A DNA stretch of 64,000 bases from Thermoplasmata archaeon (GTDB lineage: Archaea > Thermoplasmatota > Thermoplasmata > Lutacidiplasmatales > UBA184): NCBI GenBank assembly GCA_022750055.1, contig JAKIWL010000003.1, positions 55,300 through 119,299 on the forward strand, given 5' to 3'. Positions 1-12,950 of the stretch are shown in pieces. Numbering within the stretch: position 1 is the first letter of the stretch; every line of letters begins with the position of its first letter. The position numbers were made by a program, and so were the translations under genes. The notes below the pieces were generated by a model that was not told the DNA's origin, made no database searches, and worked only from the letters and a program-made list of their open reading frames with translations.

Positions 1-198
1 TACGAGGGAGCCTCCGGAATCGGGTTCCGGCTCGGCTACTTCAGCATGCTCGGAGGGGAGCGATTCGAATCCGACCTGCTCTCCCGGGTCCTCTCGGTCT
101 CGCCCGAGGCGGTCCGAGCGGCCGCCGAGCGCCTGTTTCCAGCCGAGCGGCGCGTCGTGGTCGGCTACGAGCCTTCGCGGGAGGCGCCGAATGCGGGA
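1..198 (+). CDS. M16 (pitrilysin/insulinase) family peptidase, C-terminal fragment truncated at the window edge
   Basis: Frame +1 is open from nt 1 to TGA at 196-198 (…RRVVVGYEPSREAPNAG*), with a typical M16 C-terminal domain ending. The stop overlaps the next M16 gene's ATG by 8 nt (ATGCGGGATGA). Confidence 0.45.
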
Positions 199-1477
199 TG
201 ACAACGACCCGCTGATCGTCCGTCGTTCGGAACGCTCGGACGGACTCGTCGTCGCTCGCCAGGCCCCCCCCGCCTCGACCGCGAGCTGCTCCGCCACGTA
301 CCTCGCCCCTGCCGGATCCGCCTACGACCCCCCGAGCCGGGTCGGTCTCGCGATCATGACCAACCATCTCGTCACCAGCGGGGCCGGGTCCCGCGACCGG
401 GTCACGCTCGCCCGGGACCTGGACCGGCTCGGCGCCACGCTTCAAGCCCACTGCCACCCCGAATCCGCGGAGGTGACCGTGTGGGGTCCGGCGGAGGTGC
501 TGTCGACCCTCCTATCGATACTTGCGGACGTCGTGTTGCGCCCGCGGTTCCGGGGGGAGGACCTGGAGCGGGTCCGTCGCCAACTCTTCGAGCGGCAGAT
601 GCGGGAACTCTCCCAACCGGAGAGCCGCGCCGAGCGCGAGATGCTGCGCGCGGTCTTTCCGACCGGCCACCCGTACCGTGAGACGGGCGCCGGCACCCAC
701 ACCTCCGTCTCCCGGATCGATCGCAACGACCTGATTCGGTTCCACCGGGATCACTTTACCGCTTCCGGCGCCCAGGTAGTCGTTACCTCCCCCCGATCCG
801 GTCCCGCCATCCTTTCGGAGGTGAACCGGCGGTTTCGGGATTTCGAGCGGGAGACCTCCCCACCGATGCCCACTCTCCCGCCGACCCGCCGCGTGTCGGC
901 GACTCCCCATCGGATCGACATGCCCGGTCGTTCGCAAGTGGAGATCCTCCTGGGAGGGGCGTCCATCCCTCGGGACGCTCCCGAATTTGCGGGGGCCTTT
1001 CTCGCGAACGAAGTGCTCGGCGGCCGCCCACTGCTCAGCCGGCTCTTCCAGCGCGTCCGGGAGGCCCACGGGCTCGCCTATCACGCCTCGAGCGAATTGG
1101 AGGCGATGCGTTGGGGTGGGCTGTGGATGGCTCAAGCCGGAACCGGTCCCGAGCGAATCGCCCGGGTCCTCCCGATCTTGAGCTCCGAGCTCGAGCGGAT
1201 CCGGTCGGAACGGGTCGGTTCCGGGGAGCTCGACGAGATACGGGAGAGCGCGATCGGAGAGATCCCGCTCGGCGTGGAGACGACTTCCGGCGCCCACGAC
1301 CTCGCCGTCGAGGTGACCTATTTCGGACTCGCACCGGATTTCTTCCGTCGATGGCCCGCGACGTTGCGGTCCGTCACGCCGAAGGAGATCCAGCGGTCCG
1401 CGGAGGTGGCGATGGACTCCTCGGTTGCCTGCACGGTCATCGCCGGACCCAGCCGGTCGCCCCGCGCGTCTCAATAG
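191..1477 (+). CDS. M16 family peptidase-like protein, probably a non-catalytic partner subunit (no HxxEH zinc motif found)
   Basis: 428-aa ORF with the M16 two-domain architecture and a C-terminal …VIAGPSRSP. It is translationally coupled to the upstream M16 fragment. The lack of an HxxEH inverzincin motif suggests the inactive beta-type subunit. Confidence 0.55.
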   Translation: MRDDNDPLIVRRSERSDGLVVARQAPPASTASCSATYLAPAGSAYDPPSRVGLAIMTNHLVTSGAGSRDRVTLARDLDRLGATLQAHCHPESAEVTVWGPAEVLSTLLSILADVVLRPRFRGEDLERVRRQLFERQMRELSQPESRAEREMLRAVFPTGHPYRETGAGTHTSVSRIDRNDLIRFHRDHFTASGAQVVVTSPRSGPAILSEVNRRFRDFERETSPPMPTLPPTRRVSATPHRIDMPGRSQVEILLGGASIPRDAPEFAGAFLANEVLGGRPLLSRLFQRVREAHGLAYHASSELEAMRWGGLWMAQAGTGPERIARVLPILSSELERIRSERVGSGELDEIRESAIGEIPLGVETTSGAHDLAVEVTYFGLAPDFFRRWPATLRSVTPKEIQRSAEVAMDSSVACTVIAGPSRSPRASQ

Positions 1478-1555: not shown

Positions 1556-1783
1556 ATGCTCCGCAAGAACATCACGATCACTCCCGAGGAAAACCAGTTC
1601 CTCGAGCGGCACCCCGAGATCAACCAGAGCGCGCTGTTCCGACAGATCGTGGAGAGCATGATGCTCGCGGAGCGGGCTCCGCATGTCGCCTCCGTCTCGA
1701 ACGTCCGGCTCGGCAAGGCGATCTACCGCAGCGGCGCGATCATGTTCCAACGCCCGGGCCGGACCCGAGTCCCGCCGAAGTAG
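1556..1783 (+). CDS. ribbon-helix-helix (CopG/Arc-like) small DNA-binding protein
   Basis: MLRKNITITPEENQFLERHPEINQSALFRQIVESMM has the beta-strand plus helix RHH pattern. The frame is strongly GC3-biased. An ATAAATA TATA-like element at ~1488-1494 sits ~60 nt upstream. Start chosen at the internal ATG 1556 of track ORF 1517..1783. Confidence 0.4.
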   Translation: MLRKNITITPEENQFLERHPEINQSALFRQIVESMMLAERAPHVASVSNVRLGKAIYRSGAIMFQRPGRTRVPPK

Positions 1784-2618
1784 TTCGTTCGGACGCGGGG
1801 CCGACGTCCCGACGGGGCGCGTGGCCCTCCGAGAGGCGGGGCCGCAGGCGTTGCGCCGAGACCTCGAGCGCGTCGGAGGCCCGATGGAAGACATACCCCT
1901 CGGAGCCCGGCGTGAGCGTCCCCGCACTCTCGATCGTCTTCGGGTCGGCGTCGGCGAGGGCGTGTCGCGATAGGATGTGGCCGAACGCCCATCGTCGTTT
2001 CAGAGCGAGGTCCGTGAAGTGGGGAGCGTAGTGCCCACCTCCGACCCCGACGACCACGTGATCCCGCTCGTCCTCCTGTAGGACCGGGAGGATCCGGGCG
2101 AGGGCGCGGGCTGCCTCCGCAGGCGGAGAGTCATCCTCCGCGAATCCGATCTCAGCGAACATCGAGGGCAGGTCCAAGGCCGGTCCATGGTGGGTCGCCT
2201 CGTAGGTGGCCGGCAGGCCGAGCTCGCCGCCCGCCTCGTGCATCCGACGCAGGGCGTCGGTGGCGAGCCGCGGGGCCGCCGGGTTGAGCCGGGCTCGCTC
2301 CCCACCCACCTCCGCCTCCCCGACGTTTCCCAAGGAGTGCACCGTGAAGCAGCGCACCCCCCGTTCGCTTCGATGGACCGAGGGGAAGACGAGCGGAATA
2401 CCGGGCGAGCGGAGGCCGGTCGGTAGGTGGCGGTCGAGGTGCTCGTCGTAAATGTGGAGTCCCGGTCTTCGGAGCAGCAAGACCCCTTGCGCGATCCGGC
2501 GGATCGGGGTACCCTCGACCGACTCGCCCGTCGCCTCACCCGAGGGGAGCCCCTCACCAACGAGCGCCGCCACCGGATCCTTCTCCGAGAGGATGACCAG
2601 GTATCGGGGTGCCGCCAC
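1740..2618 (-). CDS. dtdA: D-aminoacyl-tRNA deacylase, archaeal type (DtdA-like, PF04414-like)
   Basis: The N-terminus MAAPRYLVILSEKDPVAALV resembles the DtdA start (xIAIIGSKxDPASxNI). Internal HSLGN and EATHHGP motifs are present. Length is ~290 aa. It lies immediately downstream of the large aaRS-like gene on the same strand. Confidence 0.5.
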   Translation of the reverse strand: MAAPRYLVILSEKDPVAALVGEGLPSGEATGESVEGTPIRRIAQGVLLLRRPGLHIYDEHLDRHLPTGLRSPGIPLVFPSVHRSERGVRCFTVHSLGNVGEAEVGGERARLNPAAPRLATDALRRMHEAGGELGLPATYEATHHGPALDLPSMFAEIGFAEDDSPPAEAARALARILPVLQEDERDHVVVGVGGGHYAPHFTDLALKRRWAFGHILSRHALADADPKTIESAGTLTPGSEGYVFHRASDALEVSAQRLRPRLSEGHAPRRDVGPASERTTSAGLGSGPGVGT

Positions 2619-2701
2619 TCGATGCTCAATGGCCCGGCTCGGATAACCGTATTCCGGTCACCTCGGGCAGATGACCTCCGGCCGCTCCAGTCCGCGCGGG
2701 C

Positions 2702-5700
2702 CTACGAACTCGAGCCCTGGATGGGAGCGTCGGTGGGACCGTGAAAGTTCCCCGCGATGGTCTGCAGGTCATTAGGGTCCATGAGCCCCGTTCTCAGAGG
2801 GACGAAGATCCGAGCCCCACGGTCGCGGGCGATCTCGTCGATCTTGGAGAGGAACGCGGTGATCCGGGCGATCCCGTGGATGGTCACGAGGTACTCGAGG
2901 CTCTCTAGGAAGATCGCCTTCGCGTCGTGATCGTTGAGTTCCGAACGAATGCCGAACTCGATCCCGTCCAGGTCTCCCGGACGGGCGGTCGGATTCGCCG
3001 GCCCAAGCGGGATGTTCGAGAGCCAGACCACCTGGACCACCCGACTCCCGAGGGCCGCCCGTCGGGCTCCGGGCGGTTCGCGGGTGATGCAAACGCCCCG
3101 GCCCCCACCCAGGGTGAGGTCGAGGAAACTCGACCACGCGCCTTCGGCGTCGCTCCCTCGCCAAACCTCGACCCCGGTCGGCTGCGGCGGCGGAGGTGGG
3201 GCGAGGGGGACCGGACGGGGCTCGAACGGGCTGGGGGTCGGGGGTTCGCGCCGTTCGGGCGAGGGGGCGATCGTGGGCACGACCATCGACGGGGCGGGCG
3301 TGGCGGCTGGGCCGGGGAGTATCGATACCGGCACCCCGGGCGGTGGCGGCGGCGTGATCGGGGTCAGCACCGGCGCGGCGAAGCCCCGCGTGGAGGGGAT
3401 CATCTGAACCTTCGGAGGCTGGACCCGAGGCGGGATCCGCGTTACTCGCACGGGGGGGGGCGAAGGCGGAGCTGCGGGGACCTCGGTCACCGGTATGGGT
3501 GGGGGCGGGACGGCTCGTCGGGCCACGGGGGCCGGCTCCGGTGCGGGGACCGGGAGCGGGGGAGGGATCGCGACGACTGGGGAGGGGGTCTTAGGGACCG
3601 AGCGAATCGGAGGGGCCCGGGGCGCGCGTTCCGGGACCGTCCCTCCATACTGATGAACGATCTCGGCGGCCACGAAATACCCGAATCCAGGGAGCTCGGC
3701 GATCTTTTCGAACGGAGCCGAACGGAATTCATCGACCGTACGAAAGCCGGCGTCCCACGCGGCGGCCATCTTGGCCGGACCCAGCAAGGGCCGTCCGACG
3801 TCGGCCGCTAGCTGGTCGGAGAGCTCCAGGATCGAATCGTAGCGCTTCAGGCCCGCCTCGTCGAGTTCGAGCTCCGCGTCGGGCTCCTTGGGTGCGATCC
3901 GGCGCACCCGGGCCCCCCTCGGGCGGGCTTTCGGATTCTTCAGCCGATGCGCTCCGAGCGCCACGCCGGGGATCCAGACGGCCCATCGGTCCCCGCGTCG
4001 AGTCCGCCCGGTGGATCGCTCGGCCAGGGGAAACCGGATGTCGTCTGCTACGAGCTCGAACCGCCCGCAGCGAAGATGCGTCGCGAGCGCGGCGGCGTGG
4101 TGTCCGAGCTCGATCGCGAGCGCCCCGGTCGCCGCGGCGAGGATGCGCTCGGGGGGGGCTTGGAGCCCGGCCCGCCGCAGGCGCTGTCGGATATGCCGGA
4201 TGACCGCGAGACCGTCCAGGGAGAGCGACGGCAGGCTGCCGTGGGCGCTCTCGGTCGGGTCGACGAGCAGGATCTCGCCATCGCGCCAGGGCACCGGGAT
4301 GACGCATTCGGGAAGCGACTCCATGAACTCGAGCATCCCCGGCAGGATCTTCACGGTCTGGCCGTCCAGTACGACGTTCAGGGAGCCGTTGCGCATTCCC
4401 TCCATCGCCTTGCGGCCCGAAAAGCGCTCGAGGAGGTGCAGGATCCGCCCGGTCCGGCTCCCGTAGACCCGTTGGATCTCGGCGGGAACGGGTCGGGCCT
4501 CGATCCGCCGACCCGACCAGGCGTGATTGGGGGAGTCGATCTCGATCTGGCCGGTTCGGCCCACGCGCGCGAGCACAGGGGCGACCTGCTGAAGCTCCGC
4601 TGCGAGGGCGTCGTCCCCGACGAGCAAGACCACACGGGGGAGGATGGAGTCCGCCGGTAAGCCGACCTGTCGGCGGGCCGAGCGGAGCGCTCCGGCAAAT
4701 TCCACCCATCGGTCGAACTCCTTCTCCCGTTCCGCGTCGACCAGCACGTCGCCGATCGCGGTCAGCCTGCGTTCGAAGAGGGACGGGGAGTCCGGCCGGA
4801 AGGCCTGGGCGATCGCCTCCGACGTGAAGGGAGCGATCGGTGCATACTGCTCCACCCACAGGTAGACGACCCGCGCGAGGACCTGACAGGTGGCGGCGCG
4901 CACCGACGGAGACGACGAGGGAAGGAGTCGGGTCCGGGCGAGCGGCAGATACCCGGTACCGACATCCTGTTCCATGAAGCGAGAGAGACGGTCGAGGGCG
5001 CCCTGGAAATCGAGCGCTTCAAACAGCACCCGCACCTCGTTGCGGACTCGTTCGAATCGAGACAGGAGCGCCCGGTCCTCGTCCGGAAGCTCGGTGAGAT
5101 GCTCGATCGAGTAGGCGATCTCGACATGGACCCCGTCCGACTCCATCGTTTCGAGGACGTGGCGGGCCAGCTGCCAGAGCTTGCGGAGTCGCCTCGACTC
5201 GTGCCGGAAGCGGTCGGAGAGGTGACTCGGGCGAAGCGACGGGTTCGTCGCTCGGATCAACGAGGCTCGAAGGGCGTCCGCGCAACCCCCCGCCGACAGA
5301 AGCTCGGCGTCGCTGTCGGTGGCCATCGTCGGGAGTCGGACGAGCTTCAAATCGCCTGGCCGCACTCCGGCGGCCTCTCGGGCGATCAGATGGTGGAGGA
5401 GCGTCGGAACGCGACGCCGGTCCGGGACGAACAGCTGAGCACTCTCCGATGCCCCCACCTCCGCCCACACGGCCAAGGCCCCAGAGATGGCGGGCAGCAG
5501 GTCCCGACGAACCGGGTGCAGGGCCGTGGCCCCGCATGGGCAGCGTTCGTCGAAGGAGGGGGCGTGGAGGCGGTCGCATGAGTCGCATTCGAGGAGCACG
5601 GGAGCCGATGCCTCATGGCTCTCGACCGTCTCGCTCACGGGCCACGGAACCACATCCCGGGCCGGTGGCAGCGAATCGTCCGGGAGGAGGCGGGCGAACT

Positions 5701-6883
5701 CCCGCTCGATCGGCGCAGGCAACCTCGCCATCTCCACGCACCACGCTCGGCCCGGAAGCCAGATGAGGCTCGAGCCGCAGATCGAACAGTGTGGGACGCC
5801 GCGTCGGACCGTCAGTTCGGCAAAGATGAGGCCGGACTCCTTCAGGTCCCGAAGGACGAATGCATCGGCCGCTTCGAGGGGCAGTCCCGTGTACTTGTGG
5901 CGGGGCTCCGGCCGCACGATCCCCCCGGGCGTGACTACGAGCGGCCCGTCGACCCTCAGAGCGGCGGCCGCCTGGGAATCGGCGGCGCCATGCCGTGGAA
6001 CCAATCCGACGATCCCGGTACCCGAGTCGCCCACCTCGCTCGAAGCGAGGACCGTGCCCGCCGGGGGCGTCAGATTCGCGAGCGGCGGACACTCCGTGAG
6101 CAGTGGGTGTACGTACGCGGTCCCGGAGAGCTCACCGCCGGGTCGCTCTTCCAAGACCTCGACCTCGCAACCCGGGAGCCACTCCTTCAGTCTCGGGATC
6201 GCCGATCTGGCAAGAACGATCCGCTCGACCCCGCCCCGCCGTCGGTAGACCGCCGTCACGTACGGGAGGTCCGGGCTGACGAGCACGGCCGACGTCCCGA
6301 GCAGCTTCCACGGATTGTCCGTCCAGACGAGCAGGCTCGTAGGCTGACTCGAGTCCCGGATCGGGAATCGGACGAGGTACGCCGGGCCGCGCTCCGATTG
6401 ATACACGATCGTCTCGGGGGTCCTCGGGGTCTCACACTGCGGGCAGGAGCGGAACGGGAACCCCCGCGCGGCCAGGATCCCCGATTTCGCGAGGCTTTCG
6501 AGCATCCGTTGCCGTTGTGCCGCGCCCTCGGGGGTCGAGAATCCGATGGGTACCCCGTCCGCCGTCCACGCCGCGACTGCTTCGATGGCCGCTCGGGCGA
6601 AGTCGAGCGTAGGGGCGGCGACGCGGGGTCGTTCCGGGACCAGACCGACGGCCCGACGACCGGTCATGGCGAGGTAGCGAGCCTCCACGTCGGCGCTGAC
6701 GAACCGGACCAGCCGGTCGAGGGGGGCCTCGGTCTCCCCGATCGGCCCGAAGAGCTGCCGAACAATCGCCCCGCCCACCGGTCCGACCGTGCCCGGGCTC
6801 GGGGGCAGCCCGCGCGTTGACCAGAGCGCGCGGGTGCTGGCTTCGATGGCGGCTGGGTCGTAGACCGCCGGAAGTATCGGCAT
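2702..6883 (-). CDS. 1393-aa multidomain protein: degenerate class Ia aminoacyl-tRNA synthetase (Ile/Val/Leu-type) paralog, then HhH motif, Pro-rich linker and C-terminal DUF835 domain
   Basis: N-terminus [14 protein letters not shown] is followed by [32 protein letters not shown], which aligns to the P-x-x-N/TG-x-x-HxGH…RY region with both His replaced. The editing-domain signatures CPQCETP and [24 protein letters not shown] (WTTTPWTL-like) and [21 protein letters not shown] are present. KLVRL sits where KMSKS is expected, and an anticodon-binding-type helical region follows ([13 protein letters not shown]…[10 protein letters not shown]). After these come an HhH-like [20 protein letters not shown], a ~150-aa Pro-rich segment (nt ~3165-3620), and a C-terminus with DUF835 hallmarks ([36 protein letters not shown]…IFVPL). 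GC3 was sampled by hand at 4501-4560 and came to 17/20. Confidence 0.7.
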
Positions 6884-7034
6884 GCGTCGGAGGGGCCGGG
6901 TCGCGAGCTCGACCCACCCTCCGAGGAAATTGATGGGAAAGGCGCTCGATAAACCTTGTCAGTCGACGGGCAACGAACTCTGCCGGCAACCCTTATCAAT
7001 CGCGCCGCGTCCCCGCGGTCGAGAGGCTTCGCGA

Positions 7035-7421
7035 ATGGCGTGGACTCAAGCGGAGGTCCGCGAACTCAAGGAGGGCCGATACATGCTGATCGAAGAGGAG
7101 CCGTGCCGGATCATCAGCATCCAAACCTCGAAACCTGGGAAGCATGGCGAGGCCAAGGCCCGGATCGACGCCGTCGGCATCTTTGACGGGTCGAAGCGCA
7201 GCGTAGTCTATCCGGTCAAGCACAAGGTTCAGGTGCCGATGATCGGCAAGAAGTCGGCCCAGGTCCTGTCTCTCACGGACGCCGAGGTCCAGCTCATGGA
7301 CCTCGAAACGTACGAGACCTTCTCGCTCCCCCTAGACGCCGACCTGAAGGGCCAGCTGTCCCCCGGCACCGAGATCCAGTACCTGGACGCGATGGGCAAG
7401 CGCCGAATCACACGGCCCTAG
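7035..7421 (+). CDS. eif5a: translation initiation factor 5A (aIF-5A)
   Basis: Hypusination loop [13 protein letters not shown]. Start set at the internal ATG 7035 ([27 protein letters not shown]), giving the typical ~128 aa. The upstream part of the track ORF is low-complexity. Confidence 0.85.
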
Positions 7422-7653: not shown

Positions 7654-10600
7654 ATGACCGGGTCGGGCGGCATGGGAACGATGCCCTCCTCCCGCCTGAC
7701 CCGACTCCTTCAGGAGAAGGCCGAGGCGCTCAGGAAGCGTCGTCAGATCGCGGAGGCCGCGACCGAACAGTCGGAGGGTCGGCTGCGGTTGCTCGCCGAG
7801 GTCGGCGTGGAGCTGCCCGAGACCGCCGCTCGTCAGGAGCGAATCCGGGATTGGCAGCGCAAGTCCGATTGGGAGGCCTCGGACGTCGAGGCGCAATCGC
7901 TCACCCAGTACATCGATGCAACCGCCCCCGAGGCCGTGAGCGTCCGGCGTCACGAATTGTTGGACCGTGTCGAGAGCCTTCGCGCGGCCGGCAGTGCGGT
8001 ACCCCCCGAGTTGGACGAGCTCCTCTCGGAAGTGCGAGAGCTCACGTTTCGCACCGATCTCCTCACCGAGATCACCACCCTCGCCCGGTTCGCGACGTTG
8101 GTTAGGGGGGTCCAGGAGGGCCTGGCGAACGGGGCTCGCCGCCAGGTCATGGCGGTCGCCCGCTGGGTCGGCGTGCCCGCCGACGAAGCGGCCGAGATCG
8201 ACCGGCGAATTTCCGAGATACTGCCCGCCCCGGATGCGGGCCCCTCCGCGGATTGGGTCGACCGACTCCAGGCGGCGATCCCCGAACTGATCCCCGCCGC
8301 GGTGGCGAGGCGCGAGCGAAGCCGGGCGGAGGCGGAAGCGGTGGTGACGCTCGGACGGGACATCGGCCTCGCGGTCGTCGAGCTGGAGGAGGCCCTCGCC
8401 GCCGATGCACGGGCCGCTCCGTCCCAGTGGGGGGAGACCGTACCGAGCGTCGAGCAGGCGACGTCCCGGGTCCGCTCAGAACTTCGCGGCCGGGTGAGCC
8501 AGGTCCTCGGCTACCTCACGACCACGTTGGATTCACTCCCGGAGCACGGGGCCGACCCGGGCGATGCGGTTGCGGAGATCGCCCGAATCCAGGCCCAGGT
8601 CGAGACCGCGGGCGTGATGGAGCTCGGTCCGCTGCTCCAGCGGGCGCGCGAGACCGCCGAGGAGCCGATCGTCTCGGTGGTCGCCGGGTTGCTCGATGAG
8701 GTTCGGCCCAAGCTCGTCGAGGCGCGTGAACTCGGGCGCGACCCGAGCGAGGTGTTCGCTTCCATGAACCGAGCGCGCGAGGCGCTCCGGCTGAAGATCT
8801 ATGGCGAGGCCCTCGCGGCGAGCGTCGAGGCGATCGACCGGGTCAGCCAGCTGACCTCGGACCTGGACGCGGCGCGAGAGGAAGCCGAAGCCCTCGGCCG
8901 ACTCCTCGGCCGGCTGGAGACGTTGAAGGTCTCGGTCGTTCCCTTCCGCGCCGCGCTCGCGGAGGTGACGGCCCAGCTCGACCACTTCACGATCGACCGA
9001 GCCCGCGCCACCCTACGGGACACGGTGCGCGCCCTCGGTCGAGAGACCGCCCGGTACTTCGGAGCGGAGATCCAGCGACTGACCGCCGCCGCCGACACGG
9101 CGCGGCAGCGGGGATTCCTGCCCGAGGGCGTCCCTGACGACCTGGAGAAGGCCCAGCATCACATCGACGCGGGGGCGCTTCCGGAGGCCGGCGAGGCGAT
9201 CGCCCAAGTGGACGTGCGACTGCGTACCGCGGCAGGCCCGTACATCTCCCGGCGGGTCGAGGAGATGCGCCGGGGGTTCGAGGAGATCCGGGATCCGGAC
9301 CTCTCCATCAGCACCCTGCGCTCGCTCGCGGATTCCGATATCGCCCTGCGGGTGAAGGAAGACCTGACCCAATCGCTAGAGAGCCTTCGGCAGGCGGAGC
9401 GCGAGTTTTCGGCCGCGTTCGCGGTCGAGTCCTCCTCCCTCCTCGAGGCGCTCGAGGAACGCCAGCGGGTCCTAGAGGAGATGGGCGGAGCCGGGTCGGA
9501 GTTCCTTCGTCAGACCGACGAGATCCAGCAGATATTCGACATGGGCGATTTCGTGAAGTGCGCGCTCGCGGCCCGCGAATTCCTCACCTCGACCGAGGAG
9601 GTCCAGAAATCTCGGGCCGAGGAGGGGATCTCCCACGCAAAGCTCGACCTCGTCGAGATCGACCAATTTGGGCTCGCCAAGGCAGAGCTCACGAAGCAGT
9701 TCGAATCCGCCCAGCAAGACCTCGCGGCGGGGCGGTTGGTCGAGGCCTACCGGGGCGGGCTGAGCGTCCACTCGGGAGCGGAGAAGGTCCTCGGCGGCGC
9801 CCGGCCCGCGGCCGCGCTGCTCACCCAGTCGAAGGAACGGCTCCTCCAGATCGAACAGAGCGGGACCGACACCGGTGGTTTCCAGGATGAGGTGACGGCG
9901 GCCGAGGCTGCCTTCCGGTCCCTCGATTTCGAGGGGGTGCGCGCGCACCTCGGACGCCTGCAAGAACGCCTCGACCGGGCCGCCCAGGCGGAAGAGGTCC
10001 GCCGGATACTCGGCGAGTCAGACCAGCTCGCGGCCGATGCGACCCGCCTGGGGATCGCGGTCGAGGGGATCGAAGCGAAGCTCACGGAGGCGCGAGGCAG
10101 CCTCGGGGCCGCGGGGGGTCTGGAGGCACGGGCCCTTGCCTACGAGGCCCACCAGGCACTCGTCCAGACGCTGCGGCCGGTCCTGGAGGAGAACCTAAAA
10201 TCCGTCGAGCAGGACTTCGAGATCGCTCGTCGTTTGGGGGTCGACATGGGGCCGTTGTCCGGCCTCCTGTCCGACGCCCGCGGTCGACTCTTCCTCCCCG
10301 TCCCGCTGGGCGCCGCCGATCTGATCGAGAACGCCCGAGGGCAGCTGTCCCAGACCCGCGGCCTCGTGGAACATGCCGAGCGCAGCGCGAAGCGGGTCGA
10401 GGAGGCGTTTGGCCAGGCCGAATTGTTGCGGCTGGCGACGCCGGCCATGCGAACCCGGGTCGAAACGCTCGAGCACCAACTGTCCGAACGCCAGTTCGCG
10501 CGCACCGTCGAGACCGCCGGCCCGCTCGAACAGGAGATCCTTCAAACCACGACCCTTCACCTCACCCGGACGATCGCCGGCCTGCAGGGCCTCGTGGTGC

Positions 10601-12141
10601 GGGCCCGTCAGGAAGGGATCCCGACGGCCGCCGCCGAGCACCTGCTCGCCAAGGCCCGCGAGGCGCTGCAGGAGGGTCGACCGATGGACGCCCTCCAGCT
10701 CGCGGCCCAGAGCGAAGGGGAGATCGAACGGGTGGGACTCCAGACCCGGGTCGCCCGCGGGGCCCTCGAAGCGCTCGACGCCATGCGGGCGCGGCTCGAC
10801 GCGGAAGGGATCCGGTTCCCCCAAGGGCCGTCGATCACGGCGGAGGCTCGATCGTCGTTCGACCGTCGGGAGTACGCCCGGGTGCTCGAGCTCTCGTTGG
10901 AGGCGAGCGAGTTGCTCACGCAGACCCGGGAGCTCTATCGAAAGGCGCACGACGCCCTCACCGTAGCGAGCGGCACGGTCCAGGAGGCGCTCACGATGGG
11001 TGCGGAACCCGCGGAGGTCAACGCGATGCTCGGCCGGGCTCGGGAGCTGTCGGAGGCCGGCGATTACTCCGGGGCCGCCGCCCGGGCTCGCGAAGCGATC
11101 GATCTTTCCTCCTGGGCGATCGAACGCCGTTACTCCGGCACCATCACCGAGGTGCGCGGCCTGCTTCAAGCGACGCGCTCCGAGGGGTCTCCCGAGGCCG
11201 AGGGCGTGGCGAACCTGTTGAAGGAAACGGAGGCGTTCCTGCAGGCCAAGCAGTGGGCGAAGGCGGGGGAGCGGTTGGCGCGAGCCCAGGCAAAGGCGTT
11301 CCAGGTGCTCGACCGAGTGGTCGCCAGCCGAATCGACCGGATCGGCCAGCGGGACGCGCATCTCGAACCCGCGGGCCCGGCGGAGACGGAACGGCGCCGG
11401 GCGTGGCGGGCCGAGGTCGACGAGGCCCGGGCCCGAGGGGCCGTTCCGGAGGTCATGGCCTCGATCGACCAGGAGGAAGAGCGCGCTCAGGACTCTCTGA
11501 GGGCCGGCCTGGAACGCCGAGTCTCTGAGCTCAAGGACCGCCTCTGGGTCGGGGAACGCCTGGGCCTCGACGCGACCCCCGCGATGGAACACTTCAGCGA
11601 GGCTCGAATGGCCCTCGACCAGGGCCGGTTCGACGTCGTGGATCGCGAGGTGGTCCAGGGAAACTCGGCCCTCGAGGGGCTGATCCGAGAGGGGATCTCG
11701 CGCCGCGCGAAGCAGATCGAGACGGAGCTACTGTACGCTCGGGACGGTCTGAGGGTGCGCATCGGGGACATGGACCAACGGCTCTCGTCCGTCGACCTCA
11801 TCGCTCGCGAGGGACGCCTCGTCGAGGCCGGGCGGACCCTGCTCGCGGTCGAGGAGGACCTCAACCAGCGAAAATCGCTCCATCGTCAGCTGATGAACCT
11901 CCACTACCTGATCGAGGCGGCTCTTCGACGCGCCTCGGAGGCACGCCTAGACGCCGGGGACGCCCGACGCCTGTTCGAGGCGTCGGTCCGAGAGTCGGCA
12001 ACGAGCTACGCCGAAGCGATCGTCAAGGCCCGCGCGTCCTTGAAGCTCGTCGACGGCCTGCTCAAGGCCTCCGAGCCGCCGACCGCATTCTGGCCGTTCA
12101 AGCGACCGGCCCCGGACCCTGCGGAGCGTCGCGGTCAGTAG
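7654..12141 (+). CDS. giant (1495 aa) Ala/Glu/Arg/Leu-rich alpha-helical repeat protein of unknown function
   Basis: A 4.5-kb uninterrupted ORF with a hand-sampled GC3 of 17/20 at 9001-9060. There is no P-loop or other catalytic motif. Units of roughly 70-100 aa recur (e.g. AREALQEGRPMDALQLAAQSEGE…, ARMALDQGRFDVVDREVVQGNSALEGL…, ARELSEAGDYSGAAARAREAIDLSSW…). Coiled-coil or spectrin-like character is predicted from composition only. Confidence 0.65.
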   Translation: MTGSGGMGTMPSSRLTRLLQEKAEALRKRRQIAEAATEQSEGRLRLLAEVGVELPETAARQERIRDWQRKSDWEASDVEAQSLTQYIDATAPEAVSVRRHELLDRVESLRAAGSAVPPELDELLSEVRELTFRTDLLTEITTLARFATLVRGVQEGLANGARRQVMAVARWVGVPADEAAEIDRRISEILPAPDAGPSADWVDRLQAAIPELIPAAVARRERSRAEAEAVVTLGRDIGLAVVELEEALAADARAAPSQWGETVPSVEQATSRVRSELRGRVSQVLGYLTTTLDSLPEHGADPGDAVAEIARIQAQVETAGVMELGPLLQRARETAEEPIVSVVAGLLDEVRPKLVEARELGRDPSEVFASMNRAREALRLKIYGEALAASVEAIDRVSQLTSDLDAAREEAEALGRLLGRLETLKVSVVPFRAALAEVTAQLDHFTIDRARATLRDTVRALGRETARYFGAEIQRLTAAADTARQRGFLPEGVPDDLEKAQHHIDAGALPEAGEAIAQVDVRLRTAAGPYISRRVEEMRRGFEEIRDPDLSISTLRSLADSDIALRVKEDLTQSLESLRQAEREFSAAFAVESSSLLEALEERQRVLEEMGGAGSEFLRQTDEIQQIFDMGDFVKCALAAREFLTSTEEVQKSRAEEGISHAKLDLVEIDQFGLAKAELTKQFESAQQDLAAGRLVEAYRGGLSVHSGAEKVLGGARPAAALLTQSKERLLQIEQSGTDTGGFQDEVTAAEAAFRSLDFEGVRAHLGRLQERLDRAAQAEEVRRILGESDQLAADATRLGIAVEGIEAKLTEARGSLGAAGGLEARALAYEAHQALVQTLRPVLEENLKSVEQDFEIARRLGVDMGPLSGLLSDARGRLFLPVPLGAADLIENARGQLSQTRGLVEHAERSAKRVEEAFGQAELLRLATPAMRTRVETLEHQLSERQFARTVETAGPLEQEILQTTTLHLTRTIAGLQGLVVRARQEGIPTAAAEHLLAKAREALQEGRPMDALQLAAQSEGEIERVGLQTRVARGALEALDAMRARLDAEGIRFPQGPSITAEARSSFDRREYARVLELSLEASELLTQTRELYRKAHDALTVASGTVQEALTMGAEPAEVNAMLGRARELSEAGDYSGAAARAREAIDLSSWAIERRYSGTITEVRGLLQATRSEGSPEAEGVANLLKETEAFLQAKQWAKAGERLARAQAKAFQVLDRVVASRIDRIGQRDAHLEPAGPAETERRRAWRAEVDEARARGAVPEVMASIDQEEERAQDSLRAGLERRVSELKDRLWVGERLGLDATPAMEHFSEARMALDQGRFDVVDREVVQGNSALEGLIREGISRRAKQIETELLYARDGLRVRIGDMDQRLSSVDLIAREGRLVEAGRTLLAVEEDLNQRKSLHRQLMNLHYLIEAALRRASEARLDAGDARRLFEASVRESATSYAEAIVKARASLKLVDGLLKASEPPTAFWPFKRPAPDPAERRGQ

Positions 12142-12590
12142 CTCGCCGTGGGACCGGTCGGCGTCGTCGCCGCGACCCCCACCGGAACGGGTGGGGTTCC
12201 CCGAGGCGTTCCGAGGGGAAGCCGGTCGTACTCGACGGAGTGCCGGACCCCTCGGCGGCGGAGCAGCGTGGAGACCTCCTCCGTCAGTTGCACCACCTCC
12301 TGGCATCGCGCGGGCTTGGAGAAGTAGAACTCCGGATGCCTCAGGTCGCACAGCGGAAACACCAGGCGCATCCCAAAGGCGTCGGCGCGATTGTACCCGC
12401 AGGGCTTTCGATTCGCGCGCAGGTCTCGCAAGTTCTCCTCGAGGAGGACCTCGGGCACCATCGGTTCGGCCTCCCTCGCGAACGGCCGGTTCGCTTCCAC
12501 CACCTTCCGGTGGATGTCGGCGTAGACCTTCAGAAGGTCGCCGTAATGGCCGCGTGAGTCGAGGATGATGTGCCCGCTTCGGGCCTTGAC
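12135..12590 (-). CDS. hypothetical protein (conserved-looking C-terminal ~150 aa; start uncertain)
   Basis: Track ORF 12135..12905 has a strongly GC3-biased frame at 12301-12360 (16/19). The frame is at background at 12701-12760 and its 5' end overlaps the tRNA-Glu gene, so only the distal part is considered coding (…GHIILDSRGHYGDLLKVYADIHRKVV…RHPEFYFSKPARCQEVVQLTEEV…). No family recognised. Confidence 0.4.
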   Translation of the reverse strand, partial: VKARSGHIILDSRGHYGDLLKVYADIHRKVVEANRPFAREAEPMVPEVLLEENLRDLRANRKPCGYNRADAFGMRLVFPLCDLRHPEFYFSKPARCQEVVQLTEEVSTLLRRRGVRHSVEYDRLPLGTPRGTPPVPVGVAATTPTGPTASY

Positions 12591-12847
12591 CGGGGGAGTC
12601 ACTTGCGGTGGCACCGACGCCTCGCTATTTCTGGTTGGCGGTTCTGGCAAACCCCCCGTCTCGACGGTTCGATGCGTGGGCCGAATGCCCCTCGGGATGG
12701 GCGCTTCGGCTGGGTGGGAGCCTCGTGGCGCGAACACGACTCTCCGGCCTCCCAGAGAGTTCCTTCCCAGCCGACCGAACCCCTGCCGACGGGCGCGGCC
12801 GGTGAGGCGCAACTCTTTCAATACCAAGCCGAATGGGCGCGCCCGGC

Positions 12848-12950
12848 GCTCCCGTAGTCTAGTGGTCAAGGATAGAGGCCTCTCGAGCCTCTGACGCGGG
12901 TTCAAAACCGCCGGGCGTTCGGCCTGGTGGGGAAACTCCCGCCGGGAGCA
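12848..12950 (+). tRNA. tRNA-Glu (anticodon CUC) with a ~30-nt non-canonical intron in the 3' strand of the T-arm (approx. 12910..12939)
   Basis: Acceptor GCTCCCG pairs with CGGGAGC (12943-12949), discriminator A. D-arm is GTCT/AGTGGTCAA/GGAT. Anticodon stem GAGGC/GCCTC with loop CTCTCGA gives CUC. T-stem GCGGG with loop TTCAAAA pairs with CC…CGC = CCCGC only after removal of GCCGGGCGTTCGGCCTGGTGGGGAAACTCC. The intron-less alternative (12841..12917) has a perfect acceptor but three T-stem mismatches and a poor D-arm. Confidence 0.55.

What the first reader, a model, noticed from the sequence alone, without database searches (positions are those of the whole stretch)
1740..6883. Catalytically dead class Ia aaRS paralog fused to HhH, a Pro-rich linker and DUF835, co-oriented with a D-aminoacyl-tRNA deacylase
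Seen in sequence: the 1393-aa ORF has the fold signatures of an Ile/Val/Leu-type synthetase. These are the N-terminal YDPxxIExxxxxxW, the CP1 editing signatures CPQCETP and [24 protein letters not shown], the C-x-x-C knuckle [11 protein letters not shown], and an anticodon-binding-type helical region. The HIGH position reads APLDRL and the KMSKS position reads KLVRL, so ATP-dependent aminoacylation is implausible. Downstream in the same polypeptide come an HhH-like motif, ~150 residues of Pro-rich low complexity, and a C-terminus matching DUF835 ([32 protein letters not shown]). Established knowledge: HIGH and KMSKS are essential for class I activation. CP1 editing domains and DtdA both act on misacylated or D-aminoacyl-tRNA. 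DUF835 is an archaeal domain without assigned function. Inference: a two-gene tRNA-quality-control or tRNA-sensing module in which a pseudo-synthetase scaffold delivers tRNA to or senses it through the DUF835 module, with DtdA as the downstream gene. I know of no description of this architecture.
Basis: partly seen in the sequence, partly recalled or inferred. Interest (0 to 1): 0.75.

Follow-up and report, generated by a model that had tools for sequence, protein, structure and literature searches.

The report
Dead IleRS copy with KaiC-like tail
This gene encodes a copy of the isoleucine tRNA-charging enzyme that has lost its charging site but kept its tRNA-binding parts, proofreading domain and a KaiC-like tail, and its conservation across a whole order of soil archaea points to an unknown tRNA-linked, non-charging job.

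Summary
ORF 2702..6883(-) encodes a 1393-aa protein with a full type-2 IleRS fold, a helix-hairpin-helix module, a Pro-rich linker and a C-terminal DUF835 domain. DUF835 folds like KaiC/RecA but has no Walker A motif. HIGH, GWDxHG, WFDSG, DQxRGWF and the KMSKS loop are all missing, here and in every aligned family member. The fusion is not an assembly artefact: relatives occur in at least 140 species-level Thermoplasmata genomes, which include Ca. Lutacidiplasma silvani, a Ca. Lutacidiplasmatales MAG and UBA184.

- The DtdA link is local. dtdA lies directly downstream in only 2 of 50 other genomes. The conserved neighbour is a divergent aIF5A gene (72 of 73 genomes), followed by a giant helical protein (57 of 57).
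- The architecture is not unique. IleRS-HhH-DUF835 is the annotated, motif-intact IleRS of Methanomassiliicoccus luminyensis, other Methanomassiliicoccales and Ca. Sysuiplasma. The window protein is a catalytically dead branch of that fusion.

CP1 is the most conserved domain but its pocket is remodelled.

Best reading (inferred, about 0.4): a non-charging tRNA-binding adaptor or sensor that keeps the second, unknown job of the fused IleRS. I rate it a new variant of a known kind, with moderately high interest.

The parts
2702..6883 (-). Whole ORF: 1393-aa catalytically dead IleRS-HhH-linker-DUF835 protein (the NCBI record calls it 'class I tRNA ligase family protein')
6479..6883 (-). Residues 1-135: shortened, degenerate first half of the Rossmann fold. 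The HIGH position reads PLD..RL and GWDxHG is absent. This is the least conserved domain (5% of positions at least 90% conserved).
5729..6478 (-). Residues 136-385: CP1 (editing-type) domain with the Zn knuckle C147/C150 + C366/C369. It is the most conserved domain (27% of positions at least 90% conserved). The pocket is remodelled: W187, D189 (invariant), W192, K/R193, GTG 288-290, H298, D302 (invariant).
5204..5728 (-). Residues 386-560: second half of the Rossmann fold with the invariant Zn ribbon C433/C436/C448/C450. WFDSG and DQxRGWF are lost and the KMSKS loop is deleted.
4649..5203 (-). Residues 561-745: helical anticodon-binding domain (Pfam Anticodon_1)
3884..4648 (-). Residues 746-1000: C-terminal tRNA-binding-type domain of type-2 IleRS. 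It gives no Pfam hit here, is DUF5915 in relatives, and is matched by structure. It is strongly basic across the family (median pI 11, net charge +10).
3629..3862 (-). Residues 1008-1085: helix-hairpin-helix module (HHH_5, 24.4 bits, below the cut-off of 27; above the cut-off in relatives). The model shows five helices.
3182..3628 (-). Residues 1086-1234: Pro-rich linker (about 37% Pro here). The model, which ends at residue 1100, has pLDDT below 50 for residues 1090-1100. Linker length is 79-616 residues across the family.
2705..3181 (-). Residues 1235-1393: DUF835, a KaiC/RecA-like fold without Walker A (an 'inactivated KaiC' domain)
6884..7034 (.). Divergent intergenic region shared with aIF5A. 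It holds two conserved A/T-rich (TATA-like) boxes, one facing each gene.
7035..7421 (+). aIF5A (128 aa). It is the conserved divergent neighbour (72 of 73 species-level loci).
7654..12141 (+). 1495-aa A/L/E/R-rich protein of unknown family. It always follows aIF5A in this order (57 of 57 loci).
1740..2618 (-). DtdA (D-aminoacyl-tRNA deacylase, PF04414). It is co-oriented downstream in the window, but this position is not conserved, so it is probably not part of the system.

Best explanation
The gene encodes a non-aminoacylating descendant of the Thermoplasmatota-type isoleucyl-tRNA synthetase. In this phylum that enzyme normally carries a C-terminal HhH module and an inactivated KaiC-like (DUF835) domain.

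In the lineage that includes Lutacidiplasmatales/UBA184, this copy has lost the whole adenylation site. It still keeps, under purifying selection:
- the CP1 domain with a remodelled 3'-end/aminoacyl-binding pocket;
- both zinc knuckles;
- the anticodon-binding bundle;
- a very basic C-terminal tRNA-binding domain;
- the HhH module;
- a flexible Pro-rich tether;
- the DUF835 domain.

It therefore most likely works as a tRNA-binding adaptor or sensor, probably for tRNA-Ile. The aaRS-like body holds the tRNA. The CP1 pocket may read its 3' end. The tethered DUF835 docks the complex onto a RecA/KaiC-type partner or makes it oligomerise. On this view it has kept the non-charging 'second job' of the fused IleRS, while charging is done by another IleRS.

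Shown: the fold, the loss of motifs, the conservation pattern, the phyletic spread, the synteny, and the relationship to active fused IleRS.

Inferred: tRNA binding, what CP1 reads, what DUF835 docks to, and the biological output.
For: Fold:
- The model of residues 1-1100 (pLDDT 89.7) matches type-2 IleRS best. That includes the structure with a fully resolved C-terminal tRNA-binding domain and the yeast IleRS-tRNA complex. ValRS and LeuRS rank lower.

Dead synthetic site in all aligned family members:
- HIGH, GWDxHG, WFDSG and DQxRGWF are absent and the KMSKS loop is deleted.
- There is no Pfam tRNA-synt_1 hit.

Selection:
- The ORF is intact in at least 140 species-level genomes at 36-73% identity.
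- CP1 has 27% of positions at least 90% conserved, against 5% in the N-terminal Rossmann half.
- The CP1 Asp anchor (D302), W192, GTG and the Zn ligands are invariant.

Nucleic-acid binding is plausible:
- Anticodon_1 is retained.
- The C-terminal domain has median pI 11 and net charge +10. The aaRS-like body has median net charge +3, against -17 to -61 in five canonical IleRS.
- An HhH module is present.

DUF835:
- The literature lists DUF835 as an inactivated KaiC output domain of archaeal response regulators.

Origin:
- Active, motif-intact IleRS with the same HhH-DUF835 tail are the annotated IleRS of M. luminyensis, other Methanomassiliicoccales and Ca. Sysuiplasma.
- The window protein aligns colinearly with the M. 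luminyensis enzyme over residues 134-900 (E 9e-52), and separately over DUF835 (E 2e-13).

Precedent: GCN2 is activated when uncharged tRNA binds its HisRS-related domain (abstract of PMC4335047).
Against: - There is no direct evidence that the protein binds tRNA.
- The CP1 pocket has lost residues known to matter in IleRS editing, namely the Thr-rich peptide, the specificity His and the Tyr that stacks on A76. Its ligand could be something other than a tRNA 3' end.
- No KaiC-like ATPase or other obvious partner for DUF835 lies in the conserved neighbourhood.
- I could not show that the same genomes carry a separate active IleRS. None lies in about 1.5 Mb of fetched loci. The only lead is an unfused canonical IleRS on 71% GC Thermoplasmata contigs of unknown order.
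- The tree that groups the dead forms is a rough NJ tree and is prone to long-branch attraction.
Confidence: 0.4

Rival explanations
1. Trans-acting proofreading factor. The conserved CP1 domain still hydrolyses mischarged tRNA (for example Val-tRNA-Ile, or another aminoacyl-tRNA) in trans. The dead synthetase body serves only to hold the tRNA. This is the quality-control half of the first reader's idea.
For: - CP1 is the most conserved domain.
- The Asp that anchors the alpha-amino group in IleRS editing (T. thermophilus D328) is invariant as D302. W192, GTG and the archaeal P-x-H-G motif are also kept.
- The tRNA-binding domains are retained.
- DtdA, another deacylase, lies in the same broad region in about half of the genomes.
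Against: - The Thr-rich peptide WTTTPWT, intact in every active IleRS aligned, is W[TV]D..W[KR] here.
- The specificity His (T. thermophilus H319) is not conserved.
- The A76-stacking Tyr (T. thermophilus Y386) is Val.
- Loss of these residues goes together with loss of the synthetic site across the wider family.
- DtdA adjacency is not conserved (2 of 50 loci).
Confidence: 0.2
2. Partner of the aIF5A module. The protein acts with aIF5A and/or the giant helical protein encoded divergently next to it. It might, for example, tether tRNA or aIF5A at the ribosome. Its own Pro-rich linker might also make its synthesis depend on aIF5A.
For: - aIF5A is divergent and upstream in 72 of 73 species-level loci, and within 400 bp in 67 of them.
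- The giant protein follows aIF5A in 57 of 57 loci.
- The genes on the other side of the ORF vary.
- A distant dead homologue in a 37% GC Thermoplasmatota contig also has aIF5A one gene away.
- The linker has PPP runs, and eIF5A/EF-P-type factors are known to help translate polyproline (established knowledge).
- A bacterial precedent exists for a synthetase paralogue acting on the aIF5A homologue: PoxA/EpmA modifies EF-P (established knowledge; a related passage appears in PMC9437257).
Against: - The synteny lies within what appears to be a single order, so it could be inherited gene order.
- The active fused IleRS of Ca. Sysuiplasma and another dead homologue have no aIF5A nearby.
- PoxA keeps its active site, whereas this protein has none.
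- No physical-interaction evidence exists.
Confidence: 0.12
3. Decaying relic. A redundant IleRS copy is drifting toward pseudogenisation and has no function of its own.
For: All catalytic motifs are lost. The N-terminal Rossmann half is shortened and poorly conserved.
Against: - The 4.2-kb ORF is intact in at least 140 species-level genomes.
- 49 positions of residues 1-1100 are invariant, and CP1, the Zn ligands and DUF835 are strongly conserved.
- The structure models are confident.
Confidence: 0.03

Closest known systems
IleRS-HhH-DUF835 isoleucine--tRNA ligases of Methanomassiliicoccales, Ca. Sysuiplasma and other Thermoplasmata (e.g. Methanomassiliicoccus luminyensis, P0295, 1301 aa)
   Same: - Same domain order: type-2 IleRS body, DUF5915-type C-terminal domain, HhH, Pro/Ala-rich linker, DUF835.
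- The window protein aligns colinearly with the M. luminyensis enzyme.
- Same phylum.
   Different: - Those proteins keep H[ILV]GT, G[FWY]DMHG, WTTTPWT, DQTRGW and xM[SH]KS, and score about 400 bits on tRNA-synt_1.
- The window protein has none of these motifs and no tRNA-synt_1 hit.
HisRS-like regulatory domain of the kinase GCN2
   Same: Both are synthetase-derived domains that no longer charge tRNA, fused to a non-synthetase effector module. GCN2 uses its domain to bind uncharged tRNA (PMC4335047 abstract).
   Different: - GCN2's domain is class II HisRS-like, eukaryotic, and its effector is a protein kinase.
- Here the body is class Ia IleRS-like with an editing domain, and the effector is an ATPase-dead KaiC-like domain of unknown output.
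LeuRS-I, the non-canonical LeuRS paralogue of Sulfolobaceae
   Same: Both are archaeal class Ia synthetase paralogues that do not aminoacylate tRNA yet are retained. LeuRS-I matters for growth (PMC9437257).
   Different: LeuRS-I still makes leucyl-adenylate and has a disrupted CP1. The window protein is the reverse: dead adenylation site, well-conserved CP1, plus a DUF835 tail.
SbzA, the IleRS-like aminoacyl transferase of Streptomyces
   Same: Both are IleRS paralogues with full IleRS architecture used for something other than charging tRNA (PMC12945691).
   Different: SbzA keeps HYGH and AMSKA and uses the synthetic site. The window protein lacks both motifs.
REC-DUF835 / REC-PAS-DUF835 archaeal response regulators (inactivated KaiC output domain)
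   Same: Same C-terminal DUF835 domain placed after an input module, in Methanomicrobia and Thermoplasmata (PMC5847659).
   Different: The input there is a phospho-receiver or PAS domain. Here it is a 1000-residue synthetase-like body.
Free-standing trans-editing factors (AlaX, YbaK/ProX, DTD/DtdA)
   Same: These are proteins that carry an editing activity without a working synthetic site.
   Different: They are small single domains unrelated to CP1. As far as I know, no natural free-standing CP1 editing factor has been described (my own knowledge, not tested here).

Membership tests
Class Ia aminoacyl-tRNA synthetase, IleRS (functional enzyme) | HIGH (archaeal H-x-G-T) and KMSKS signature motifs in a Rossmann fold | tested here: not met
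   The HIGH position reads PLD..RL and the KMSKS loop is deleted. GWDxHG, WFDSG and DQxRGWF are also absent. This holds in all aligned family members.
Class Ia aminoacyl-tRNA synthetase, IleRS (functional enzyme) | Score above the curated equivalog cut-off (NCBIfam TIGR00392) or a Pfam tRNA-synt_1 hit | tested here: not met
   TIGR00392 scores 120 bits against a cut-off of 621. PF00133 gives no hit even at E 10 on the separate pieces.
IleRS fold (homology, not activity) | Overall type-2 IleRS architecture: Rossmann fold, CP1 insertion, Zn knuckles, helical anticodon-binding domain, C-terminal tRNA-binding domain | tested here: met
   Foldseek top 14 hits are all IleRS (E 4e-46 to 4e-32), aligned over about 1100 columns to type-2 IleRS; ValRS first appears at rank 15. 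Anticodon_1 E 1e-13. CP1 matches 1ile at E 7e-22.
IleRS CP1 post-transfer editing site | Thr-rich peptide WTTTPWT, specificity His (T. thermophilus H319), Asp anchoring the alpha-amino group (T. thermophilus D328), Tyr stacking on A76 (T. thermophilus Y386) | tested here: inconclusive
   Asp is kept and invariant (D302), as are Trp (W192) and GTG. The Thr-rich peptide is W-T/V-D-x-x-W-K/R, the His is not conserved, and the Tyr is Val. Activity cannot be read from sequence.
DUF835 (PF05763) / inactivated KaiC-like domain | Pfam score above the gathering cut-off | tested here: met
   41.2 to 46.8 bits against a cut-off of 33.1. All 27 aligned C-termini hit PF05763.
DUF835 (PF05763) / inactivated KaiC-like domain | RecA/KaiC-type fold lacking the Walker A P-loop | tested here: met
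Helix-hairpin-helix (HHH_5, PF14520) | Pfam score above the gathering cut-off | tested here: inconclusive
   24.4 bits against a cut-off of 27 for the window segment. Relatives score above the cut-off, up to 78 bits. The model shows helices at 1009-1078.
   dtdA is directly downstream in 2 of 50 species-level loci. In 22 of 42 loci it lies upstream of the gene, beyond the aIF5A and giant-protein genes. It is absent from the flanks of the rest.
GCN2-type tRNA sensor (works-like comparison only) | Binding of uncharged tRNA by the dead synthetase-like domain, coupled to an effector output | not testable with these tools
   Only indirect support is available: tRNA-binding domains are retained and the C-terminal domain is basic.
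Paralogue coexisting with an active IleRS | A second, motif-intact IleRS in the same genome | tested here: inconclusive
   None was found in about 1.5 Mb of fetched Lutacidiplasmatales loci. A candidate unfused IleRS (P0211) lies on 71% GC Thermoplasmata contigs, but I could not link it to a genome that carries the dead copy.

The most novel reading that the evidence does not exclude
The protein is the sensor of an archaeal pathway that monitors tRNA charging or amino-acid supply. The dead IleRS body captures tRNA-Ile. The remodelled CP1 pocket distinguishes a charged from an uncharged 3' end, or binds the free amino acid. The tethered inactivated-KaiC domain passes the result to the KaiC-type signalling network or to the translation apparatus, including the adjacent aIF5A module. 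This would be a functional analogue of GCN2, or of the LeuRS-to-TORC1 link, in a domain of life where no such sensor is known.
Probability: 0.15. Interest if true: 0.85.

Novelty: new variant of a known kind. Interest (0 to 1): 0.6.

Why it matters
Synthetase-derived proteins that have stopped charging tRNA are a recurring source of regulators and quality-control factors. Very few are known in archaea, and I know of none that keeps a well-conserved CP1 domain while losing the whole adenylation site.

This work also shows that a large part of the Thermoplasmatota, including the cultivated methanogen Methanomassiliicoccus luminyensis, has a housekeeping IleRS fused to an ATPase-dead KaiC-like domain. 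I found no paper describing that fusion.

The dead version isolates whatever this extra module does from aminoacylation itself. It is therefore a natural separation-of-function variant. If the extra job is tRNA or amino-acid sensing linked to the proposed KaiC signalling hub, it would give a first handle on how these archaea couple translation status to regulation. The active fusion in a culturable organism makes the question open to experiment.

Tried and rejected
- Assembly artefact or false fusion: rejected. The same single ORF occurs in more than 80 protein clusters and 140 species-level genomes.
- DtdA operon: rejected as a conserved feature.
- ValRS or LeuRS origin: rejected. NCBIfam valS matched the anticodon-binding half, but the fold search ranks IleRS first throughout. 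The C-terminal domain and the colinear alignment point to type-2 archaeal IleRS.
- Searching for the true IleRS of the same genomes: no result. tblastn of canonical IleRS against all fetched loci and the window found only the dead copy. High-GC candidates from the representative search gave no link: P0215 is named Halobacteria by its source, P0237 sits on a 68% GC contig of unidentified origin with a YkuD-type neighbour, and P0211 is an unlinked Thermoplasmata MAG.
- Profile search with the DUF835 alignment in the word-indexed protein database: unproductive, with only 5 fragments returned.
- Sequence search of DUF835 against PDB: nothing significant. The fold search was needed.
- Giant neighbouring protein: no Pfam, NCBIfam or PDB hit and no internal repeats.
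- The afdb50 fold library was unavailable.
- The Makarova 2017 KaiC paper could not be read.
- The NJ tree is kept only as a rough indication because of long branches.
Full report
WHAT IS THERE

The window is about 70% G+C. ORF 2702..6883 on the minus strand encodes 1393 residues.

Profile searches on this ORF gave the following.
- Pfam Anticodon_1 at residues 603-745, E 1e-13.
- Pfam DUF835 at residues 1255-1377, above its gathering score.
- A weak HHH_5 match of 24.4 bits against a cut-off of 27.
- No tRNA-synt_1 hit, even when the protein was cut into pieces.
- NCBIfam ileS at 120 bits over CP1, far below the equivalog cut-off of 621, and valS over the anticodon-binding half.
- Best PDB match by sequence: the CP1 region of T. 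thermophilus IleRS, E 7e-22.

The downstream co-oriented ORF 1740..2618 is a DtdA. The divergent upstream gene 7035..7421 is aIF5A.

STRUCTURE

An AlphaFold model of residues 1-1100, built on a 59-sequence family alignment, is confident (pLDDT 89.7, pTM 0.80).
- Its best Foldseek matches in the PDB are type-2 IleRS from Priestia megaterium, including the entry with a fully resolved C-terminal tRNA-binding domain, and yeast IleRS bound to tRNA.
- These align over about 1100 columns with E down to 4e-46.
- ValRS appears at rank 15 and LeuRS from rank 21.
- The body is therefore a complete IleRS fold, including the C-terminal tRNA-binding domain that Pfam did not detect here.

The C-terminal 160 residues also model with high confidence (pLDDT 93.8).
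- The P-loop position carries R-E-x-P-x-R instead of a Walker A motif.
- This agrees with the one paper found that mentions DUF835. It lists the domain as an inactivated KaiC-like output domain of archaeal response regulators (PMC5847659).

THE SYNTHETIC SITE IS GONE AND CP1 IS KEPT BUT CHANGED

The family was aligned with canonical IleRS.
- HIGH, GWDxHG, WFDSG and DQxRGWF are absent.
- The KMSKS loop is deleted in every aligned member.

By domain, CP1 is the most conserved part. It has 27% of positions at least 90% conserved, against 5% in the N-terminal Rossmann half and 7-9% in the tRNA-binding domains.

Mapped onto the T. thermophilus editing site through the alignment, the pocket compares as follows.
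- Retained and invariant: the Asp that anchors the substrate amino group (D328 becomes D302), Trp232 (W192) and the GTG motif.
- Changed: the Thr-rich peptide WTTTPWT reads W-T/V-D-x-x-W-K/R, with an invariant Asp189.
- Changed: the specificity His319 is not conserved.
- Changed: Tyr386 is Val.

The pocket is therefore remodelled under selection rather than decayed. Whether it still hydrolyses anything cannot be told from sequence.

Other conserved features:
- Both zinc sites are invariant.
- The C-terminal domain is strongly basic across the family (median pI 11).
- The whole body is near neutral, whereas five canonical IleRS are strongly acidic.
- The linker varies from 79 to 616 residues at 20-37% proline in most members.

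DISTRIBUTION AND SYNTENY

The exact protein is an NCBI entry from a Thermoplasmata MAG named 'class I tRNA ligase family protein'. About 85 clusters share the architecture.

A scan of one genome per GTDB species found 140 relatives, and the best 80 loci were kept. All 80 are Thermoplasmata or Thermoplasmatota MAGs. They include Ca. Lutacidiplasma silvani, a Ca. Lutacidiplasmatales MAG and UBA184. That order is described as having about 69% G+C and living in acidic soil (PMC9287336).

Among the kept loci:
- aIF5A lies divergently upstream in 72 of 73 loci with enough flank, and within 400 bp in 67 of them.
- A 1100-1500-residue helical protein homologous to window 7654..12141 follows aIF5A in 57 of 57 loci.
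- dtdA is directly downstream in only 2 of 50 loci, both close relatives of the window.
- In 22 of 42 loci dtdA lies upstream of the gene, beyond the aIF5A and giant-protein genes, usually next to the M16 peptidase gene.

The genes downstream of the ORF differ from locus to locus. The DtdA pairing is therefore a local rearrangement and not a module.

The 150-bp divergent spacer carries two conserved A/T boxes, one facing each gene.

THE WIDER FAMILY

An exhaustive phmmer search of 1.84 billion representatives returned the Lutacidiplasmatales family first. It then returned long (1200-2300 residue) proteins at 21-29% identity.

All twelve of these that were scanned have tRNA-synt_1, Anticodon_1, DUF5915 and DUF835, and ten of the twelve also have an HhH module. 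Their motifs form a series:
- some are fully intact (H-x-G-T, G-F/W-DMHG, WTTTPWT, xM[SH]KS);
- some lack only KMSKS;
- some are as dead as the window protein, and these have an even more degenerate CP1.

Source names are 'isoleucine--tRNA ligase [Ca. Sysuiplasma acidicola]' for an intact one, and 'class I tRNA ligase family protein [Ca. Thermoplasmatota archaeon]' for dead ones.

I then searched with the Sysuiplasma enzyme.
- All 120 best hits except one truncated partial sequence carry DUF835 together with tRNA-synt_1.
- The named ones are the isoleucine--tRNA ligases of Methanomassiliicoccus luminyensis, Methanomassiliicoccus sp., other Methanomassiliicoccales and Thermoplasmata.
- The M. 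luminyensis protein has HLGT, GYDMHG, WTTTPWTL, DQTRGW and AMHKS, then HhH, a short Pro/Ala linker and DUF835.
- The window protein aligns colinearly with it over residues 134-900 (E 9e-52), and again over DUF835 (E 2e-13).

A rough NJ tree places the dead and intermediate forms together inside the Thermoplasmatota fused-IleRS radiation. Long-branch attraction cannot be excluded.

The fusion is therefore ordinary in this part of the archaeal tree. What is unusual in the window is the complete loss of the charging site.

MECHANISM

Shown:
- an IleRS fold without an adenylation site;
- strong selection on CP1, the Zn sites, the tRNA-binding domains and DUF835;
- a flexible tether;
- descent from, or sisterhood to, active fused IleRS;
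- a tight link to aIF5A within the lineage.

Inferred: the protein binds tRNA, probably tRNA-Ile. Its CP1 pocket binds the 3' end or an aminoacyl group. DUF835 docks the complex to a RecA/KaiC-type partner or drives oligomerisation. In other words, it keeps the non-charging job of the fused IleRS (confidence about 0.4).

Rivals:
- trans-editing through CP1 (0.2), weakened by the loss of the catalytic Thr-rich peptide;
- a role tied to aIF5A and the giant protein (0.12), supported only by synteny, which may simply be inherited;
- a decaying relic (0.03), contradicted by the conservation.

Known analogues are the HisRS-like domain of GCN2 (PMC4335047), LeuRS-I of Sulfolobaceae and SbzA (PMC9437257 and PMC12945691). 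Each differs in which site is kept.

GAPS

- I could not show that the same genomes carry an active IleRS. They must, if the motif loss means what it normally means. None was in the fetched loci. The best candidate is an unfused canonical IleRS on 71% G+C Thermoplasmata contigs of unknown order.
- No partner for DUF835 was identified.
- No literature on IleRS-DUF835 fusions was found in the held library. That library is incomplete, and the key KaiC paper could not be read.

VERDICT

The dead synthetase fusion is right. The DtdA module and the claim of a unique architecture are wrong.
- It is a new variant of a known kind (a synthetase-derived pseudoenzyme).
- Interest is about 0.6. That score rests on the order-wide conservation, the retained and remodelled CP1, and the undescribed IleRS-KaiC-like fusion it exposes in culturable methanogens.

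Noticed in passing
window 7654..12141 (+): A 1495-aa protein that is 50% Ala/Leu/Glu/Arg. It has no Pfam, NCBIfam or PDB match and no internal repeats. An ortholog follows aIF5A in 57 of 57 species-level loci of this lineage. Function unknown.
   Followed up: partly
window 12135..12905 (-) and 12848..12920 (+): Only the C-terminal ~150 residues of this mechanical ORF are conserved across loci, next to the giant gene. Its 5' part overlaps a tRNA-Glu(CTC) gene on the other strand, so the real gene is shorter than listed.
   Followed up: partly
window 6884..7034: The divergent spacer between the dead IleRS gene and aIF5A holds two conserved A/T boxes in an otherwise 70% G+C genome. A GATAAGGGTT-type box lies about 40 nt before the aIF5A ATG. 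A GGTTTATCG-type box lies about 50-65 nt before the other ATG. They are seen in 68 loci and are probably back-to-back TATA elements.
   Followed up: partly
P0295, P0284, P0197 and the 120 best hits (not in the window): The annotated housekeeping IleRS of Methanomassiliicoccus luminyensis, other Methanomassiliicoccales and Ca. Sysuiplasma carries a C-terminal DUF835 (KaiC-like, no Walker A), usually preceded by an HhH module. I found no paper that mentions this.
   Followed up: partly
L089 and L090 (36-37% G+C Thermoplasmatota contigs); proteins P0209, P0191, P0202, P0206, P0207, P0210, P0212: Other Thermoplasmatota lineages hold IleRS-HhH-DUF835 proteins whose synthetic site is dead and whose CP1 is also heavily degenerate. 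Inactivation may have happened more than once, or along a gradient. In L089, aIF5A again lies one gene away.
   Followed up: partly
P0201 and P0244 (Logan assemblies, ~1048 aa): These are IleRS-like proteins rich in Gly/Ala/Arg/Pro. They lack HIGH, GWDxHG and KMSKS and have no DUF835. P0201 has WTAAPWT in place of the Thr-rich peptide. They form a separate motif-less IleRS-like lineage of unknown origin.
   Followed up: no
L092-L094 (71% G+C 'Thermoplasmata archaeon' contigs), protein P0211: An unfused, motif-intact archaeal IleRS (1123 aa; tRNA-synt_1, Anticodon_1, DUF5915). It is a candidate for the real IleRS of the high-GC lineage. Co-occurrence with the dead copy was not shown.
   Followed up: partly
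window 191..1477 (+) with 1740..2618 (-): The M16-family peptidase gene and dtdA travel together as a pair in many loci of this lineage. They usually lie upstream of the dead IleRS gene, beyond the aIF5A and giant-protein genes. In the window's subclade the pair sits downstream of the dead IleRS gene instead.
   Followed up: partly
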